Origin: a virus
Lineage: Duplodnaviria; Heunggongvirae; Uroviricota; Caudoviricetes
Virus record (IMG/VR): IMGVR_UViG_3300014919_000025
Coordinates: 1 to 4,704 of that record
Direction: 5' to 3' (one strand)
DNA length: 4,704 nt
In this document: one piece after another, positions 25 through 4,603 of the stretch
Layout of the letters: the number at the start of each line of letters is the position of its first letter
How positions within the stretch are numbered: the first letter of the stretch is position 1
Notes under the pieces: generated by a model
Told to the model about the DNA's origin: nothing
Databases searched by the model: none
The model's input: the letters and a program-made list of their open reading frames with translations, nothing else
Translations under genes and position numbers: made by a program

Positions 25-657
25 TCATATCAGGCGTAATACCACAACCCTTAAGTTAGCGCTTATGGGGTTTACCCCCTCATTCAAACGGGCTTTCCAG
101 GCTTTGAAGGCTGCAGATTTTGAATTGCCACCAGCACGTTTTGGATAGGCCAGCCATGCCTGCTCAAACTCCGGAGAGTATTCCGGTCGGTTTGAACGAA
201 CTCGCACAGACTCATCAGCAGATGCACCAACAGCTATTGGTTCATTGACTGGTTCTTTGACTGGTTCAAAAGAGTGACTGGTTCTGGGTGAATCTCCTGC
301 ACTACCCCCTGGTGCAACTCCTGCACTACCTGGTGAATTTGCTGCACCAGATAGTGAATTATTTGCACTACCCCCTAGTGAATCTCCTGCACCATCAAGA
401 TGAAGGAGATAGATATTACTTGAGTTACCTTTTTCACCTTTCCGGGTGACTTTTTTTACCAGCCCGGACTCACAAAGGGCCGCAATATGATTCATCACAG
501 AACGTTTGCTAATCTCGCACTGGTCAGCAATATGCTGGTAGCTGGGCCAGCACTCACCCTGATCGCTGGCATTATCAGCCAGCTTAATCAGAACCAGTTT
601 TCGCAATGGATTTCCCACTCGAATTTTCATCGCTTTAACCATCAACTCCATACTCAT
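25..657 (-). CDS. Putative replication-initiation protein (210 aa): N-terminal winged-HTH domain, Gly/Ser/Ala/Pro-rich repetitive linker, short basic C-terminal region
   Basis: ORF-track ORF. The N-terminal region (LVLIKLADNASDQGECWPSYQHIADQCEISKRSVMNHIAALCESGLV) has the pattern of HTH domains found in phage/plasmid replication initiators. The ATG at 657 overlaps the stop of the upstream 74-aa ORF (ATGA at 654-657). It occupies the position of an O-like gene in a cro-cII-O type operon. The product call is inference; the coding call is better supported. Confidence 0.6.
   Translation of the reverse strand: MSMELMVKAMKIRVGNPLRKLVLIKLADNASDQGECWPSYQHIADQCEISKRSVMNHIAALCESGLVKKVTRKGEKGNSSNIYLLHLDGAGDSLGGSANNSLSGAANSPGSAGVAPGGSAGDSPRTSHSFEPVKEPVNEPIAVGASADESVRVRSNRPEYSPEFEQAWLAYPKRAGGNSKSAAFKAWKARLNEGVNPISANLRVVVLRLI
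240..392. repeat. Intragenic short direct repeats (iteron-like) in the linker of the replication gene
   Basis: TGACTGGTTC occurs three times (246-255, 258-267, 275-284). GTGAATCTCCTGCAC occurs twice exactly (288-302, 378-392), with degenerate copies near 332-348 and 352-368. CTGCACTACC(CCCT) occurs at 297-310, 321-330 and 364-376. These encode the low-complexity linker GAGDS / GSAGDSP / EPVKEPVNEP. Confidence 0.6.
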
Positions 658-878
658 GCAGCACCTCCGAGATGCTTCATGTTTTTTCCGGAGCGAAAGG
701 CTATAAGCGGCATACTGACGCGGTAATTACGGCCCAGCGGTTCACAAATCACCTTCTGACATTCACGGTCAACCAGGCTAACACGTAGAACATGCCCTGC
801 AGGCGTGGTGTACCACTGACCCGGACGAGGACAACGGAAAGTATGATTGGTAAACCGTTTGAAAATATTCCGGATCAT
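654..878 (-). CDS. Hypothetical small protein (74 aa), translationally coupled between Rha copy A and the replication gene
   Basis: ORF-track ORF. Its ATG (878-876) overlaps the Rha copy-A stop as ATGA (875-878), and its stop overlaps the next ATG as ATGA (654-657). An AGGGGG Shine-Dalgarno-like motif lies 5 nt upstream of the ATG. No recognisable domain. Confidence 0.4.
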   Translation of the reverse strand: MIRNIFKRFTNHTFRCPRPGQWYTTPAGHVLRVSLVDRECQKVICEPLGRNYRVSMPLIAFRSGKNMKHLGGAA

Positions 879-1756
879 TTACGCCCCCTTACCTCTGAAG
901 GGTTCAGCGACAAATTTATGAGACTGGCCAGTAGCGCCGCGTCGTTGATGCGGTCATACAGACTTACAGCCAGCGGGGATTCGGCTTTTGCCAACATGGG
1001 ATAAAGCTGCTGCAGCCAGACCTTGTGGATTACCGACAGGTGGGAGTAAAGCACGCTGGCGTTATCTGCGGCATCGCTCAGCGTGGATGGCTTTGAAAGC
1101 AGTTTTTCCATCTGGTTAAAGGCATTGATGTATGCCTCTTTGAACCGGGCAGCACGTTTACCCGTGAAACCCATAGCAAGAAACGCAAAACCGTCTCGTG
1201 TGATTTGATAGCAAAGGAGCTTGCGTGTACCACCGTTCGGTTGATTTACCGAAATCGATGTCTCCGCAAAATTGCGGGCACAAAACTCAGGGGAACAATC
1301 CAGAGTGCGGATCTTTTTCAGCACATCGTCGTGACGCTTGGAGAAGAAGTTGGCAACAGCCAAAGAAGTGGTAACGGCCTGGCCGTTGTCAATGGTGATT
1401 TCAGGTTGAGTGAGGGCTGGGATCGTAGCCATGATGGCAGCCTCCGTTGACAGTGAAAAACTTCCACCACCGGAAACGCCAATTTCACTGGTGGTGAACT
1501 GGACGGGGTTGGCGTAACCGGCGTCAACGGAGACCGGCGCACCTTTCGGTGCCCCCGCCCAGCCCACCATAATCTGGATGTGAGCAAATGCGGACGATAA
1601 AAAAGACGCTGGCGCGTCATACATCGCCGTTGACAATTTCAGGACGCCAATCCCGGCACCCGCTTTATAAGGTGCCTGAACAGTGTAACGTCCCGGAATT
1701 GCAGAATCAATATGCTGGTGGCGATTGGTAAACAGTTTGAAAATATTCCGGATCAT
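875..1756 (-). CDS. Rha-family phage regulatory protein, copy A. The full ORF is 293 aa; the Rha domain is the C-terminal 185 aa (875-1432) and has its own SD+ATG
   Basis: Rha hallmarks are present: FFSKRHDDVLKKIRTL and YQITRDGFAFLAMGFTGKRAARFKEAYINAFNQMEK. An internal start ATG at 1432-1430 is preceded by GGAGG (1441-1445 on plus) with an 8-nt spacer. The ORF is also open upstream to an ATG at 1756 that overlaps the copy-B stop (ATGA 1753-1756). Which start is used cannot be decided from sequence alone. Confidence 0.6.
   Translation of the reverse strand: MIRNIFKLFTNRHQHIDSAIPGRYTVQAPYKAGAGIGVLKLSTAMYDAPASFLSSAFAHIQIMVGWAGAPKGAPVSVDAGYANPVQFTTSEIGVSGGGSFSLSTEAAIMATIPALTQPEITIDNGQAVTTSLAVANFFSKRHDDVLKKIRTLDCSPEFCARNFAETSISVNQPNGGTRKLLCYQITRDGFAFLAMGFTGKRAARFKEAYINAFNQMEKLLSKPSTLSDAADNASVLYSHLSVIHKVWLQQLYPMLAKAESPLAVSLYDRINDAALLASLINLSLNPSEVRGRK
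1599..1618 (-). terminator. Terminator-like hairpin plus U-run inside the leader of Rha copy A (possible attenuator)
   Basis: On the minus strand, GACGC-gcca-GCGTC (plus 1605-1618) is followed directly by UUUUUU (plus 1604-1599). The stem is only 5 bp and the element lies within an open reading frame, so confidence is low. Confidence 0.3.
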
Positions 1757-2898
1757 TTACGCCCCCTTACCTCTGAAGGATTCAGCGACAAATTTATGAG
1801 GCAGGCCAGCGCCGAAGCATCATTAATATAGTCATACAAGCTAACAGCCAGCGGAGATTCGGCTTTTGCCAACATAGGATAAAGCTGCTGCAGCCAGACC
1901 TGATGAATTGATGAAATGTAGGAATAGAGAACGCTGGCGTTATGTGCAACGTCGCTCAGTACAGAGGGATTTGAAAGCTGTTTCTCCATCTGGTTAAAGG
2001 CATTGATGTATGCCTCTTTGAACCGGGCAGCACGTTTCCCCGTGAAGCCCATGGCAAGAAACGCAAAACCGTCGCGGGTGATTTGGTAACAAGGGAGTTT
2101 GCGGCCTGTGCAATCGGTGTAATCACTGGGCTGAAAATTCAGCTCAGTGAATTCAACAGAGCACTCAAGCGTCTGGATTTTTTGAATAACGTTTTTGTGC
2201 TGCTTGCAGAAATATTCGGCAACGGCCAAAGAAGAGGTAACAGCCTTCCCATGGATAACATCAATTTTAGGGTGAGTTTGGGTAGGGGTGGTTGCCATAG
2301 TGACATCCTCATGTGCGAATTTTGAAAACTCACCACATGGGACGCCAATCACAGAGGTGGTGAGACGTACAGGGTTGGCGTAACCGGTCGCACATGACCC
2401 CGGCGCATCTTTCGATGCCCCTGCACGCCCCACCATAATTTGGATGTGAGGAAACGTGCGCAAAAAAACCGCTGAAGCGCGGTTATGCGCATGTGCGAAT
2501 TTCAGGACGCCAATCCCGGCACCCGCTTTATAAGGTGCCTGAACAGTGTAACGTCCCGGAATTGCAGAATCAATATGCTGGTGGTCCTTCACACTCAACA
2601 AAATCACGCCTGAATTTCCACAAAGGACTAAAGCACTCATGCGGGTAGTCTTTGCGAAGATAGATAACGCGCTGTGTTTCTGGCTCCCAACGAATAACAT
2701 GGACATAAAGCCCTCTTCCGTCACGAAACCAGCGGTTAAGTTCCTGCACAACTCGCCCCCCACAGTCAGGTAAAGTTCTCTGTGGTTACTTACAGCCAGG
2801 TGATTTGGTAATCTGCATTCATGCCGTAACAACAGGTGTTCAGCGACGCTGACCACCAGCTGTTGCGACAAACGGTTATTTGCCGTTAAACTATTCAT
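1753..2898 (-). CDS. Rha-family phage regulatory protein, copy B, as a composite 381-aa ORF: a Cys/His-containing N-terminal region of about 105 aa, a leader of about 95 aa, and a Rha domain (1753-2298, 181 aa) with its own SD+ATG
   Basis: Rha motifs are present: YFCKQHKNVIQKIQTL and the identical core YQITRDGFAFLAMGFTGKRAARFKEAYINAFNQMEK. The internal ATG at 2298-2296 is preceded by GAGGA (2306-2310 on plus) with a 7-nt spacer. The ATG at 2898 overlaps the stop of the upstream 185-aa gene (ATGA 2895-2898). There is no in-frame stop between 2898 and the Rha domain. Confidence 0.55.
   Translation of the reverse strand: MNSLTANNRLSQQLVVSVAEHLLLRHECRLPNHLAVSNHRELYLTVGGELCRNLTAGFVTEEGFMSMLFVGSQKHSALSIFAKTTRMSALVLCGNSGVILLSVKDHQHIDSAIPGRYTVQAPYKAGAGIGVLKFAHAHNRASAVFLRTFPHIQIMVGRAGASKDAPGSCATGYANPVRLTTSVIGVPCGEFSKFAHEDVTMATTPTQTHPKIDVIHGKAVTSSLAVAEYFCKQHKNVIQKIQTLECSVEFTELNFQPSDYTDCTGRKLPCYQITRDGFAFLAMGFTGKRAARFKEAYINAFNQMEKQLSNPSVLSDVAHNASVLYSYISSIHQVWLQQLYPMLAKAESPLAVSLYDYINDASALACLINLSLNPSEVRGRK
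2462..2484 (-). terminator. Terminator-like hairpin plus U-run inside the leader of Rha copy B (possible attenuator)
   Basis: On the minus strand, AACCGC-gcuuca-GCGGUU (plus 2467-2484) sits next to a run of seven U (plus 2468-2462). It is at the position equivalent to the copy-A element but with a different stem sequence. Confidence 0.3.
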
Positions 2899-3705: not shown

Positions 3706-3802
3706 ATGACCTCCACATATTGCGTGATGAGCATATTATTTCACGCAAATATTTTGCGCAAGTTGATTTGCTTAACGCGCAATAAAGAAATGTAATAAAC
3801 GC
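3706..3802. promoter_or_regulatory. Divergent promoter/operator region between the cro-like and cI-like genes (OR-like)
   Basis: A 97-bp AT-rich intergenic region carries several related dyad half-sites. These are TTGCGTGA (3720-3727), CGCAA-N5-TTGCG (3744-3758), the palindrome TTGCGCAA (3754-3761) and TTGCT-N5-CGCAA (3768-3782). A candidate minus-strand promoter for cro has -35 TTGCGC (3756-3761) and -10 TAATAT (3733-3738) with a 17-bp spacer. A candidate plus-strand -10 TAATAA (3793-3798) sits just upstream of the repressor ATG. Confidence 0.55.
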
Positions 3803-4495
3803 ATGAACATAGGAAACCGAGTCAGACAACTTCGCCAGGCGAAGAACATGAAAATCGCCGATCTCGCTGAAGCAATAGGAGTGGATGCGGCGAATATCTC
3901 ACGCCTGGAAACAGGTAAGCAGAAACAATTCACTGAACAAGCCCTGAGTAATATTGCCAGGAGCTTAGGTGTTGATATCGCTGATCTCTTTACCTCAGAC
4001 GTCAAAAGTAATACTGTATGTAAAAACAGTATTGGTGAGGATGTTGCGCAGGTGAAGGATGTATTCCGTATTGAAATGCTGGATGTCAGTGCCAGTGCGG
4101 GAAATGGCCTTATCCAGGGCGGTGATGTCATTGATGTGATTCATGCCATTGAATACAGAACTGATAATGCTGTATCGATGTTTGGCGGACGGCCAGCCAA
4201 TCACATTAAAGTTATCAACGTTCGTGGGGACAGTATGTGTCCAACCATTGAGCCAGGAGATCTCATCTTCGTTGATATCAGTATCAATCAGTTTGATGGG
4301 GATGGTATATATGTATTTGGTTTTGATGATAAAATTTACGTCAAACGACTGCAAATGATACCTGATAAACTGCTGGTAATTTCTGATAATCAGATTTACC
4401 GCGAATGGGGAATTACCAGCGAAAACGAACATCGGTTTATGGTCTTTGGAAAGGTCTTAATCAGTCAGTCACAAACCCTTAAGCGACACAATTAA
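3803..4495 (+). CDS. cI-like prophage repressor (230 aa): N-terminal XRE-type HTH plus C-terminal LexA/S24-type autopeptidase domain
   Basis: The N-terminus NIGNRVRQLRQAKNMKIADLAEAIGVDAANISRLETGK is a canonical HTH. The C-terminal domain has the nucleophile in VRGDSM (Ser144) and the general base in YVKRL (Lys181), spaced 37 residues apart as in LexA. A candidate Ala-Gly cleavage site is SASA-GNG (Ala99-Gly100). Confidence 0.85.
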   Translation: MNIGNRVRQLRQAKNMKIADLAEAIGVDAANISRLETGKQKQFTEQALSNIARSLGVDIADLFTSDVKSNTVCKNSIGEDVAQVKDVFRIEMLDVSASAGNGLIQGGDVIDVIHAIEYRTDNAVSMFGGRPANHIKVINVRGDSMCPTIEPGDLIFVDISINQFDGDGIYVFGFDDKIYVKRLQMIPDKLLVISDNQIYREWGITSENEHRFMVFGKVLISQSQTLKRHN

Positions 4496-4550: not shown

Positions 4551-4603
4551 TTGCATATCTCGCAATAAAAACACTTGCATAATGCGCAACTTCATTTTAT
4601 CTT
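4551..4603 (+). promoter_or_regulatory. Second operator-like cluster with a possible plus-strand promoter (OL/PL-like)
   Basis: Two 15-bp sites, TTGCATATCTCGCAA (4551-4565) and TTGCATAATGCGCAA (4575-4589), fit the TTGCG-N5-CGCAA dyad seen in the cI/cro intergenic region. A possible -35 TTGCAT (4575-4580) and -10 TATCTT (4598-4603) have a 17-bp spacer. Promoter direction and function are inferred. Confidence 0.35.

What the first reader, a model, noticed from the sequence alone, without database searches (positions are those of the whole stretch)
2299..2584. Leader of Rha copy B: equivalent helices with different sequences (terminator-like hairpin plus seven U, enclosing palindromes, GAAA-loop hairpin)
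The minus strand has a hairpin AACCGC/GCGGUU (plus 2467-2484) adjacent to a seven-U run (plus 2462-2468). It is flanked by two copies of the palindromic hexamer TGCGCA (2457-2462 and 2486-2491), which can pair to enclose it. A further hairpin GCATC-GAAA-GATGC (2405-2418) replaces the C:G pair of copy A with U:A. The 5' part of the leader is the identical 87-bp block (2498-2584). Two alternative pairings, a terminator hairpin or an enclosing helix that sequesters the U-run, are the classic architecture of a transcription attenuator.
Basis: partly seen in the sequence, partly recalled or inferred. Interest (0 to 1): 0.6.

Follow-up and report, generated by a model that had tools for sequence, protein, structure and literature searches.

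The report
IsrK plus C4 antisense-RNA leader
The "leader" of the second Rha gene is a known phage immunity cassette: a small decoy RNA with its own terminator, then the C4 antisense RNA that blocks the ribosome site of an antirepressor-type gene, so it is a correct observation of an already described system and not a new attenuator.

Summary
They belong to two curated RNA families. An IsrK-type sRNA lies at 2538-2462 (62 bits; two hairpins and the terminator with seven U). A C4 antisense RNA lies at 2440-2353 (75 bits), and the GAAA hairpin is its stem P2. Copy A carries the same pair.

The C4 loop b' (UCAUGUGCGA) is complementary to b2, which overlaps the rha Shine-Dalgarno sequence. It is also complementary to the upstream copy b1 inside IsrK. 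Among 36 distinct loops in related phage contigs, b', b1 and b2 covary.

This layout matches P1/P7 immI (c4-icd-ant) and Gifsy-1 isrK-orf45-anrP. The likely mechanism is antisense occlusion of the ribosome site, relieved by the terminated decoy RNA.

The "enclosing" helix is real and conserved, including in P1 and Gifsy-1. However, it is nested around the terminator and its 3' arm follows the U-run, so it cannot act as an antiterminator. The attenuator reading is therefore not supported.

Three points are modestly new. The two tandem cassettes have orthogonal b specificities. I found no description of the enclosing helix in the sources I read. RefSeq CDSs run over both RNA genes.

The parts
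2545..2573 (-). Promoter of cassette B: -35 TTGATT (2573-2568), 17-nt spacer, -10 TACACT (2550-2545), 6-7 nt before the first hairpin
   Evidence: Located. -35/-10-like hexamers sit at the same distance from hairpin H1 in 63 very different upstream contexts, and in Gifsy-1 and P1 (P1c4). The site is below the threshold of the simple scan (8 of 12 matches).
2462..2538 (-). IsrK-type sRNA B. It is the a1/b1 decoy and ends at the intrinsic terminator.
   Evidence: Rfam RF01394, 62.3 bits (gathering 50), E = 4.6e-12, full-length match.
2519..2538 (-). Hairpin H1 (GCACCU...GGGUGC)
   Evidence: 98.7% of cells paired; 4 of 6 pairs have changes on both sides among 50 relatives.
2503..2518 (-). Hairpin H2 with site a1 (UUGGCGU, 2513-2507) in its loop
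   Evidence: a1 is complementary to a' of C4.
2490..2499 (-). Site b1 (UUCGCACAUG), the upstream copy of the C4 target
   Evidence: Direct repeat D8 with 2305-2322. 9-nt complement of loop b'. All 9 b':b1 pairs change on both sides in relatives.
2486..2491 (-). 5' arm of the enclosing helix E (UGCGCA); overlaps b1 by 2 nt
   Evidence: Comparative support.
2462..2484 (-). Intrinsic terminator T1: AACCGC-GCUUCA-GCGGUU plus seven U
2457..2462 (-). 3' arm of enclosing helix E (UGCGCA), present only in read-through RNA
   Evidence: Adding these bases lowers the fold energy from -26.8 to -33.5 kcal/mol, with E in the MFE and the centroid.
2353..2440 (-). C4 antisense RNA B. Predicted mature form about 2434-2356, by analogy with the P1 C4 ends.
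   Evidence: Rfam RF01695, 75.1 bits (gathering 45), E = 5.5e-14. z = -5.1. P1 98.9% and P2 97% paired, with 12/17 and 5/5 pairs changed on both sides. P1 C4 ends.
2405..2418 (-).
2388..2397 (-). b' recognition loop of C4 hairpin P3 (UCAUGUGCGA)
2375..2381 (-). a' recognition site of C4 (ACGCCAA)
   Evidence: Complementary to a1 and a2.
2329..2364 (-). a2 hairpin. CUCACCAC (the 3' strand of C4 P1) pairs with GUGGUGAG, with a2 (UUGGCGU, 2348-2342) in the loop. It is mutually exclusive with C4 stem P1 and is followed by UUUU.
   Evidence: 92% paired; 6 of 8 pairs changed on both sides; 0 of 500 shuffles reach the observed value.
2306..2319 (-). b2 target (UUCGCACAUGA, 2319-2309) overlapping the Shine-Dalgarno GAGGA (2310-2306)
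   Evidence: In 36 loop types the cognate b':b2 run averages 8.1 nt against 4.2 nt permuted. 8 of 10 pairs changed on both sides.
1753..2298 (-). rha copy B, 181 aa, start AUG 2298-2296
   Evidence: Pfam Phage_pRha, E = 1e-32.
1599..1675 (-). IsrK-type sRNA A: b1 UUGUCAACGG 1636-1627; E arms 1628-1623 and 1598-1593; terminator 1618-1605
   Evidence: Rfam 62.2 bits.
1487..1574 (-). C4 antisense RNA A: b' CUCCGUUGAC 1532-1523; b2 GUCAACGGAG 1451-1442 over SD GGAGG; rha A AUG 1432-1430
   Evidence: Rfam 81.4 bits.

Best explanation
The region is one of two tandem immI-type RNA control cassettes. They sit in the early right operon of an e14/lambdoid-like E. coli prophage.

How it is proposed to work:
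1. Each cassette has its own promoter.
2. Most transcripts are expected to stop at the intrinsic terminator T1. This would yield a ~77-nt IsrK-type sRNA that carries the sites a1 and b1.
3. Read-through transcripts continue into a C4 antisense RNA and the rha mRNA.
4. C4 is folded and probably excised, as in P1. It pairs through its junction a' and loop b' with a2 and b2.
5. b2 overlaps the rha Shine-Dalgarno sequence, so Rha (an antirepressor-type protein) is not translated.
6. The terminated sRNA carries the same target sites. It acts as a decoy that titrates C4 or opens the inactive fold, switching translation on.

Shown here:
- Family membership of both RNAs.
- All helices.
- The a'/b' complementarities, their position over the ribosome site, and their covariation.

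Inferred from P1/P7 and Gifsy-1 experiments:
- Partial termination.
- C4 processing.
- Repression by C4 and activation by the decoy.

The enclosing helix forms only in read-through RNA. Its role is unknown. My guess is an isoform-specific clamp or processing/stability element, not an antiterminator.
For: - Rfam matches above gathering score for IsrK and C4 in both copies.
- The same order, isrK/a1b1 then C4, in Gifsy-1 and P1 (annotation).
- C4 copies A and B differ by 5 double compensatory changes and no broken pair.
- Among 50 relatives, H1, P1 and P2 are 97-99% paired with many two-sided changes.
- 36 distinct b' loops each match their own b2 (mean 8.1 nt against 4.2 permuted) and b1 (6.9 against 3.8). 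b2 always abuts GGAG, 8-12 nt before the start codon.
- Cognate b' duplexes are -17 to -24 kcal/mol.
- The downstream genes of this cassette in other phages are Rha, Bro-N, ORF6N, P22_AR and ANT/KilAC proteins, all antirepressor-type.
- Promoter hexamers sit at a fixed distance from H1.
- Published mechanism: short IsrK activates translation of the read-through isrK-orf45-anrP mRNA (PMC4825925).
- Published model: C4 a'/b' pair with a2/b2 at the ribosome site, with a1/b1 as competing sites (Citron & Schuster 1990, as summarised in the PMC2864571 supplement).
Against: - There is no expression data for this locus. Termination efficiency, C4 processing and trans action are not shown here.
- The Rfam c4-a1b1 model itself scores only 21.6 bits (gathering 46.7).
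- There is no separate icd/orf45 reading frame. The frame from the C4 5' AUG runs into rha, so the details of translational control may differ from P1 and Gifsy-1.
- Rha has not been shown to be an antirepressor in this prophage.
- a' is invariant in my sample, partly because the search pattern fixed a1. Covariation for the a sites therefore rests only on the P1 comparison.
Confidence: 0.85

Rival explanations
1. Classical transcription attenuator. The terminator hairpin and the enclosing UGCGCA helix are alternative pairings that decide whether RNA polymerase reads into rha.
For: A real terminator with seven U sits in the leader. The enclosing helix is real and conserved. In Gifsy-1 only part of the transcripts read through the equivalent terminator (PMC4825925).
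Against: The two helices are nested and co-occur in the MFE and centroid folds. The 3' arm lies after the U-run, so it cannot compete during termination. No sensing element was seen, and no Rfam riboswitch match. The covarying long-range complementarities are those of an antisense system.
Confidence: 0.04
2. The leader is protein-coding: an N-terminal extension of Rha, as annotated in RefSeq (293-, 295- and 381-aa CDSs).
For: The frame is open through both leaders and RefSeq annotates it so. The AUG at the C4 5' end is in frame and open to the rha AUG in 22 of 36 distinct leaders. In Gifsy-1 an ORF starting at this AUG (orf45) is translated (PMC4825925).
Against: Substitutions between copies are compensatory for RNA stems. 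The b' and b2 segments are hypervariable at the protein level but complementary at the RNA level. 14 of 36 leaders have stops or a frame shift. A Shine-Dalgarno sequence and AUG sit at a fixed place just after b2 in all relatives. The Pfam Rha domain starts at residue 21 of the short protein.
Confidence: 0.06
3. The inverted repeats are DNA-level protein-binding sites (operators) and not RNA helices.
For: The arms are short palindromes near a promoter-proximal region. P1 has a C1 operator at its c4 promoter.
Against: The arms change sequence freely while staying complementary. 47 of 292 pairs are G-U on the sense strand, which would be A-C mismatches on the other strand. The sense strand folds better than the antisense strand (-8.17 against -7.24 kcal/mol, p = 0.03). 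The arms flank a terminator, 50-80 nt downstream of the promoter.
Confidence: 0.03

Closest known systems
Gifsy-1 isrK-orf45-anrP locus of Salmonella (Hershko-Shalev et al. 2016, PMC4825925)
   Same: The order is the same: promoter, IsrK (two hairpins, a1 in the second loop, b1, intrinsic terminator), C4-type RNA, target sites over a ribosome site, then an antirepressor-type gene. Gifsy-1 also has an enclosing helix around the terminator (CGACA/UGUCG).
   Different: The downstream gene is an ORF6N protein, not Rha, with no detectable similarity. In Gifsy-1 orf45 ends in an ATGA overlap with anrP; here the same frame is fused in frame to rha. Gifsy-1 has one cassette after gene Q; here two tandem cassettes lie between the cII-like and replication genes.
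immI operon of phages P1/P7: c4-icd-ant (Citron & Schuster 1990; annotation of NC_005856)
   Same: a1, b1, C4 (with a' and b'), a2 and b2 occur in the same order. b2 lies at the ribosome site. C4 matches RF01695 (68.8 bits), and a sub-threshold IsrK-like leader includes a hairpin plus U-run enclosed by GCGGACA/UGUCCGU.
   Different: P1 represses icd, to which ant is translationally coupled; here b2 covers the rha ribosome site directly. The a and b sequences differ. The effector is Ant (KilAC domain). P1 has a C1 operator at the promoter; none was identified here.
P4 immunity: CI RNA with seqA and seqC
   Same: A processed RNA from an untranslated leader pairs with complementary sites upstream and downstream of itself. 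Hershko-Shalev et al. call P4 SeqA RNA a structural homolog of IsrK and compare STnc1160 with P4 CI RNA.
   Different: In P4 the outcome is premature transcription termination of the replication operon. This was not examined here.
Classical terminator/antiterminator attenuators (trp leader, T-box, riboswitches)
   Same: An intrinsic terminator lies in a 5' leader and only part of the transcripts read through.
   Different: No mutually exclusive antiterminator overlaps the terminator, and no sensor was seen.

Membership tests
C4 antisense RNA (Rfam RF01695) | Covariance-model score at or above the gathering threshold (45 bits), full length | tested here: met
   75.1 bits (copy B) and 81.4 bits (copy A), model positions 1-87 of 87.
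C4 antisense RNA (Rfam RF01695) | Long stem P1 enclosing hairpin P2 (stable tetraloop) and hairpin P3 with a large loop | tested here: met
   P2 has a GAAA loop. P1 and P2 are 97-99% paired with two-sided changes in 50 relatives.
C4 antisense RNA (Rfam RF01695) | Two sites a' and b' complementary to a2/b2 downstream, with b2 at the ribosome binding site of the controlled gene | tested here: met
   a' ACGCCAA pairs with a2 UUGGCGU. b' UCAUGUGCGA pairs with b2 UCGCACAUGA, which overlaps GAGGA. Covariation.
C4 antisense RNA (Rfam RF01695) | Second copy of the targets (a1, b1) upstream of C4 on the same transcript | tested here: met
   a1 at 2513-2507 and b1 at 2499-2490. All 9 b':b1 pairs change on both sides.
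C4 antisense RNA (Rfam RF01695) | Processing (RNase P) to a ~77-nt RNA that represses in trans | not testable with these tools
   The requirement is recalled from the P1/P7 literature. It needs RNA mapping and genetics.
IsrK sRNA (Rfam RF01394) | Covariance-model score at or above the gathering threshold (50 bits) | tested here: met
   62.3 and 62.2 bits, model positions 1-77 of 77. The Gifsy-1 original scores 79.3.
IsrK sRNA (Rfam RF01394) | Own promoter directly upstream | tested here: inconclusive
   TTGATT-17-TACACT at the position of the Gifsy-1 and P1 promoters, with hexamers conserved in position across relatives. It is below the scan threshold and there is no transcription start-site data.
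IsrK sRNA (Rfam RF01394) | Short form ends at a Rho-independent terminator; read-through gives the mRNA, and the short form activates its translation | not testable with these tools
   The terminator is present. The isoforms and the activation are shown only in Gifsy-1 (PMC4825925).
c4-a1b1 motif (Rfam RF03163) | Covariance-model score at or above the gathering threshold (46.7 bits) | tested here: not met
   21.6 bits in both copies. P1 and Gifsy-1 pass with 51 and 48 bits. The motif's defining features are nevertheless present: two hairpins, a1 in the second loop, b1 immediately 3'.
Terminator/antiterminator attenuator | Intrinsic terminator in the leader | tested here: met
Terminator/antiterminator attenuator | Alternative helix that shares bases with the terminator stem and can form before it | tested here: not met
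   Helix E shares no base with the T1 stem apart from U2462 of the U-run. It is nested and its 3' arm is downstream.
Terminator/antiterminator attenuator | Sensor (leader peptide, ligand aptamer, tRNA or protein site) that selects the fold | tested here: not met
   No Rfam riboswitch or leader family matched. T-box features were not examined separately, and no regulatory-codon run was seen in the ORF translations.

The most novel reading that the evidence does not exclude
Two things are not excluded.

(1) The helix that encloses the IsrK terminator may be a functional element that I did not find described in the sources I read. It is conserved with covariation from P1 to Gifsy-1 to this prophage and can form only in read-through RNA. 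It might mark the long isoform, for example by clamping the 3' end of b1 so that cis b1 competes poorly with b2 while free IsrK remains an efficient decoy. Alternatively it might provide an RNase III or stability determinant.

(2) The two tandem cassettes share a but have orthogonal b specificities. They may give the prophage two independent RNA immunity channels. The prophage would then repress, or be derepressed by, superinfecting or co-resident phages of two different immI-type specificities.
Probability: 0.25. Interest if true: 0.45.

Novelty: already known. Interest (0 to 1): 0.22.

Why it matters
The finding itself matters little, because it rediscovers curated RNA families. It is still useful in four ways.

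1. It corrects the annotation. RefSeq Rha CDSs of 293-381 aa run across two non-coding RNA genes, and the likely protein is 181-185 aa.
2. It makes explicit that Gifsy-1 IsrK equals the P1 a1/b1 leader plus a terminator. It also shows that orf45/STnc1160 overlaps a C4 RNA. The IsrK activation mechanism can therefore be read as the decoy model proposed for P1.
3. It shows that this cassette is a portable switch placed in front of many antirepressor-type genes, with dozens of b specificities.
4. It points to a conserved helix of unknown role and to a natural pair of orthogonal cassettes that could be tested for cross-immunity.

Tried and rejected
- tRNA/tmRNA scan: nothing found.
- Hexamer statistics: the TGCGCA count alone is not significant, so the case for helix E rests on comparative data.
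- Helix E on the MAFFT alignment: it scored only 63% paired on A3. The arms sit at variable distance from the terminator, so columns are out of register. I replaced this with per-sequence arm extraction and permutation tests. I did not build a covariance model.
- Terminator stem T1: it also looks poor on A3 (67%) for the same alignment reason, although a terminator was found in 86 of 94 leaders.
- Coding hypothesis for the leader: tested and rejected as the main explanation.
- DNA-operator hypothesis for the inverted repeats: rejected on G-U content and strand asymmetry.
- a2 hairpin as a second conserved terminator: considered because both window copies have a U-rich tail. The tail is not conserved in relatives (alignment A3), so I do not claim it.
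- Literature searches for newer work linking IsrK, STnc1160 and C4 gave nothing relevant. Three searches failed on term length.
- No homology search for Rha was needed.
Full report
**1. Context**

The window is the immunity and early-right region of an e14/lambdoid-like E. coli prophage. Near-identical copies occur in human E. coli isolates. All genes below are read on the minus strand except the repressor (Pfam results; ORFs).

| Feature | Coordinates | Pfam or note |
|---|---|---|
| CI-like repressor (plus strand) | 3803-4495 | HTH plus Peptidase_S24 |
| Cro-like HTH | 3705-3445 | HTH |
| CII/YmfL | 3452-2895 | CII-like |
| Small protein | 2749-2570 | DUF4222 |
| rha B | 2298-1753 | Phage_pRha, 1e-32 |
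| rha A | 1432-875 | Phage_pRha, 4e-27 |
| 74-aa ORF | - | no family |
| Replication gene | 657-25 | HTH_36/DnaD-like |

The two Rha proteins are 71% identical.

**2. The observation**

- Terminator AACCGC-GCUUCA-GCGGUU at 2484-2467, with seven U at 2468-2462.
- UGCGCA at 2491-2486 and at 2462-2457.
- GCAUC-GAAA-GAUGC at 2418-2405.
- An exactly identical 87-nt block, 2498-2584 = 1635-1721.

The simple terminator scan finds the hairpins of both copies. The whole 256-nt leader folds with z = -5.7 (copy A: z = -5.0). The hexamer count on its own is not significant.

**3. What it is**

A scan of all Rfam families gives, twice in tandem on the minus strand, an IsrK sRNA followed by a C4 antisense RNA.

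| RNA | Coordinates | Bits | Gathering score |
|---|---|---|---|
| IsrK B | 2538-2462 | 62.3 | 50 |
| IsrK A | 1675-1599 | 62.2 | 50 |
| C4 B | 2440-2353 | 75.1 | 45 |
| C4 A | 1574-1487 | 81.4 | 45 |

The GAAA hairpin is stem P2 of C4.
- The first 46 bases of the reported interval (2539-2584) are not leader. They hold the promoter TTGATT-17-TACACT and upstream DNA.
- -35/-10-like hexamers occupy the same position relative to the first hairpin in 63 otherwise unrelated upstream contexts. The same holds in Gifsy-1 and P1.
- The two experimentally studied systems have the same order of elements. In Gifsy-1, isrK lies at 1492-1568 and C4 at 1594-1677, inside "orf45". In P1, c4-a1b1 lies at 218-270, a sub-threshold IsrK-like match at 231-312, and C4 at 338-423.

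**4. The regulatory pairings**

Using the P1 nomenclature (annotation; description in the PMC2864571 supplement):

| Site | Sequence | Coordinates (copy B) | Location |
|---|---|---|---|
| a' | ACGCCAA | 2381-2375 | C4 junction |
| b' | UCAUGUGCGA | 2397-2388 | loop of C4 hairpin P3 |
| a2 | UUGGCGU | 2348-2342 | downstream of C4 |
| b2 | UCGCACAUGA | 2318-2309 | overlaps SD GAGGA (2310-2306), 7 nt before AUG 2298 |
| a1 | UUGGCGU | 2513-2507 | loop of IsrK hairpin 2 |
| b1 | UCGCACAUG | 2498-2490 | just 3' of hairpin 2 |

The b1/b2 pair is the direct repeat D8.

I fetched 120 viral contigs with the a1-hairpin pattern.
- They contain 36 distinct b' loops.
- Each loop matches its own b2 (mean exact complement 8.1 nt against 4.2 when partners are permuted).
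- Each loop matches its own b1 (6.9 nt against 3.8).
- b2 always abuts GGAG, 8-12 nt before the start codon.

On a 50-sequence alignment, counted:
- H1, P1 and P2 are 97-99% paired, with 4/6, 12/17 and 5/5 pairs changed on both sides.
- 8 of 10 b':b2 pairs and 9 of 9 b':b1 pairs show two-sided changes.
- All measures exceed 500 of 500 shuffles and all slid controls.
- a', a1 and a2 are invariant in this sample. a1 was fixed by the search pattern. P1 supplies the covarying example (UGUCAAA/UUUGACA).

Between the window's own two copies, C4 differs by 5 double compensatory changes and one one-sided change, with no broken pair.

**5. Mechanism**

The sequence therefore carries the logic of an antisense switch.

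Established elsewhere:
- In P1/P7, C4 is cut out of the leader and pairs with a2/b2 to block translation. The a1/b1 sites were proposed as competitors (Citron & Schuster 1990, as summarised). That RNase P does the cutting, and that the block causes polarity on ant, is from my own knowledge of later P1/P7 papers.
- In Gifsy-1, a fraction of transcripts read through the IsrK terminator to give a translationally silent mRNA. The terminated IsrK, acting in trans, makes it translatable (PMC4825925).

Proposed here by inference:
- Transcripts from the cassette promoter mostly end at T1 and give the decoy.
- Read-through gives C4 plus rha mRNA.
- C4 occludes the rha ribosome site.
- Excess decoy relieves the block.

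A difference from both models is the lack of a separate icd/orf45 frame. The AUG at the C4 5' end is the first AUG of Gifsy-1 orf45 by position. Here it is in frame with rha.

The controlled genes of this cassette in other phages are Rha, Bro-N, ORF6N, P22_AR and ANT/KilAC proteins. This fits an antirepressor-type role for Rha, but that role is not shown.

**6. The enclosing helix**

This is the one part of the observation not covered by the Rfam models.

Evidence that it is real:
- Adding the 12 nt after the U-run lowers the fold energy by 6.7 kcal/mol (copy B) and 7.5 kcal/mol (copy A). The helix appears in both the MFE and the centroid.
- Copy A has GGCGAU/AUCGUC in place of UGCGCA/UGCGCA.
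- In 43 distinct arm pairs from relatives, the mean duplex energy is -8.2 kcal/mol. Partner-permuted pairs give -6.35 (0 of 500 permutations reach the observed value) and shuffled arms give -4.1.
- At least 10 different arm sequences occur, for example GCGCAU/AUGCGY, GCGACAUA/UAUGUCGU, GCGUAC/GUACGC and GCACAU/AUGUGC.
- P1 has GCGGACA/UGUCCGU and Gifsy-1 has CGACA/UGUCG in the same place.
- 47 of 292 pairs are G-U, and the sense strand pairs better than the opposite strand (p = 0.03). This points to RNA and not to a DNA site.
- One subfamily (L012/L022/L033) lacks the helix.

Why it is not an antiterminator:
- It is nested around the terminator, not alternative to it.
- Its 3' arm is made only after the polymerase has passed the U-run.

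Its 5' arm overlaps b1 by 2 nt, and it can exist only in the read-through isoform. I therefore suggest an isoform-specific clamp or a processing/stability element. This is a guess.

**7. A real alternative pairing**

The 3' strand of C4 stem P1 (2364-2357) can also pair with 2336-2329. This forms a hairpin that presents a2 in its loop.
- The hairpin is 92% paired, with two-sided changes at 6 of 8 pairs.
- Weinberg et al. already noted that the 3' half of P1 sometimes overlaps a downstream hairpin.
- The U-rich tail seen in both window copies is not conserved, so I do not call it a terminator.

**8. The two copies**

- The cassettes share the promoter, H1, H2/a1 and a', but differ in b.
- Cognate b' duplexes are -17 to -24 kcal/mol. 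Non-cognate duplexes are -4.5 to -7.5 kcal/mol.
- The tandem junction occurs in 13 of 5,426 complete E. coli genomes.
- Sister prophages, for example in O104:H4 strains, carry cassette B only.
- The tandem is real but rare. It probably arose by recombination at the identical block.

**9. Rivals**

- Coding leader: the RefSeq annotation as long Rha CDSs is contradicted by the compensatory pattern. It is also contradicted by stops or frame shifts in 14 of 36 relatives and by the fixed SD-AUG after b2.
- DNA-operator reading: contradicted.
- Attenuator reading: contradicted by section 6.

**10. Verdict**

The element is a member of known, curated families.

Noticed in passing
window 875-1756 and 1753-2898; L001 6809-7690 and 7687-8574; L002 2309-3454: RefSeq/PGAP CDSs called 'Rha family phage regulatory protein' (293, 295 and 381 aa) start far upstream. 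They run through the IsrK- and C4-type RNA genes, and no ncRNA is annotated. The likely proteins are 181 and 185 aa.
   Followed up: yes
window 1640-1860 (junction between rha B and cassette A): The tandem junction is found in only 13 of 5,426 complete E. coli genomes (including S88). Sister prophages carry cassette B alone. The 87-nt identical block looks like the recombination site.
   Followed up: partly
window 2329-2364 (copy A 1463-1498): The 3' strand of C4 stem P1 has a second covarying partner. This gives a hairpin with a2 in its loop that excludes P1. In both window copies a short U-rich tract follows, but this is not conserved in relatives.
   Followed up: partly
window 2434-2436 and 1568-1570; L123 1598-1735: The conserved AUG at the C4 5' end is the first AUG of Gifsy-1 orf45. 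In the window it is in frame and open into rha (46-47 extra codons). In Gifsy-1 orf45 ends in an ATGA overlap with anrP.
   Followed up: partly
L012 5232-5484, L022 10305-10554, L033 5492-5585: A subfamily of leaders lacks the enclosing helix. Instead the terminator loop GCUCAUG is complementary to CAUGAGC just downstream of the U-run, and GAGC upstream can pair with the loop.
   Followed up: no
window 288-392: Three direct repeats of a 39-nt reference copy (starts at 288, 312 and 354; identities 100%, 62% and 82%) lie inside the HTH_36/DnaD-like replication gene. They look like origin iterons.
   Followed up: no
L008, L015, L025, L037, L067, L075, L079 (50 nt upstream of the first hairpin): Leaders linked to Bro-N genes have an inverted repeat TTACC-N5-GGTAA lying just upstream of, and abutting, the -35 hexamer of the cassette promoter. 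It may be a repressor operator, as at the P1 c4 promoter.
   Followed up: no
L016, L019, L027, L028, L048, L052, L058, L066 (between the enclosing helix and C4): These leaders carry a roughly 45-nt insertion between the terminator region and C4. It contains an extra hairpin-like segment, and in some a TATAAT-like hexamer.
   Followed up: no
window 3768-3786 and 4551-4569; 3706-3802: TTGC...GCAA-type repeats lie in the cI-cro intergenic region and downstream of cI. They are probably the repressor operators (OR and OL).
   Followed up: no
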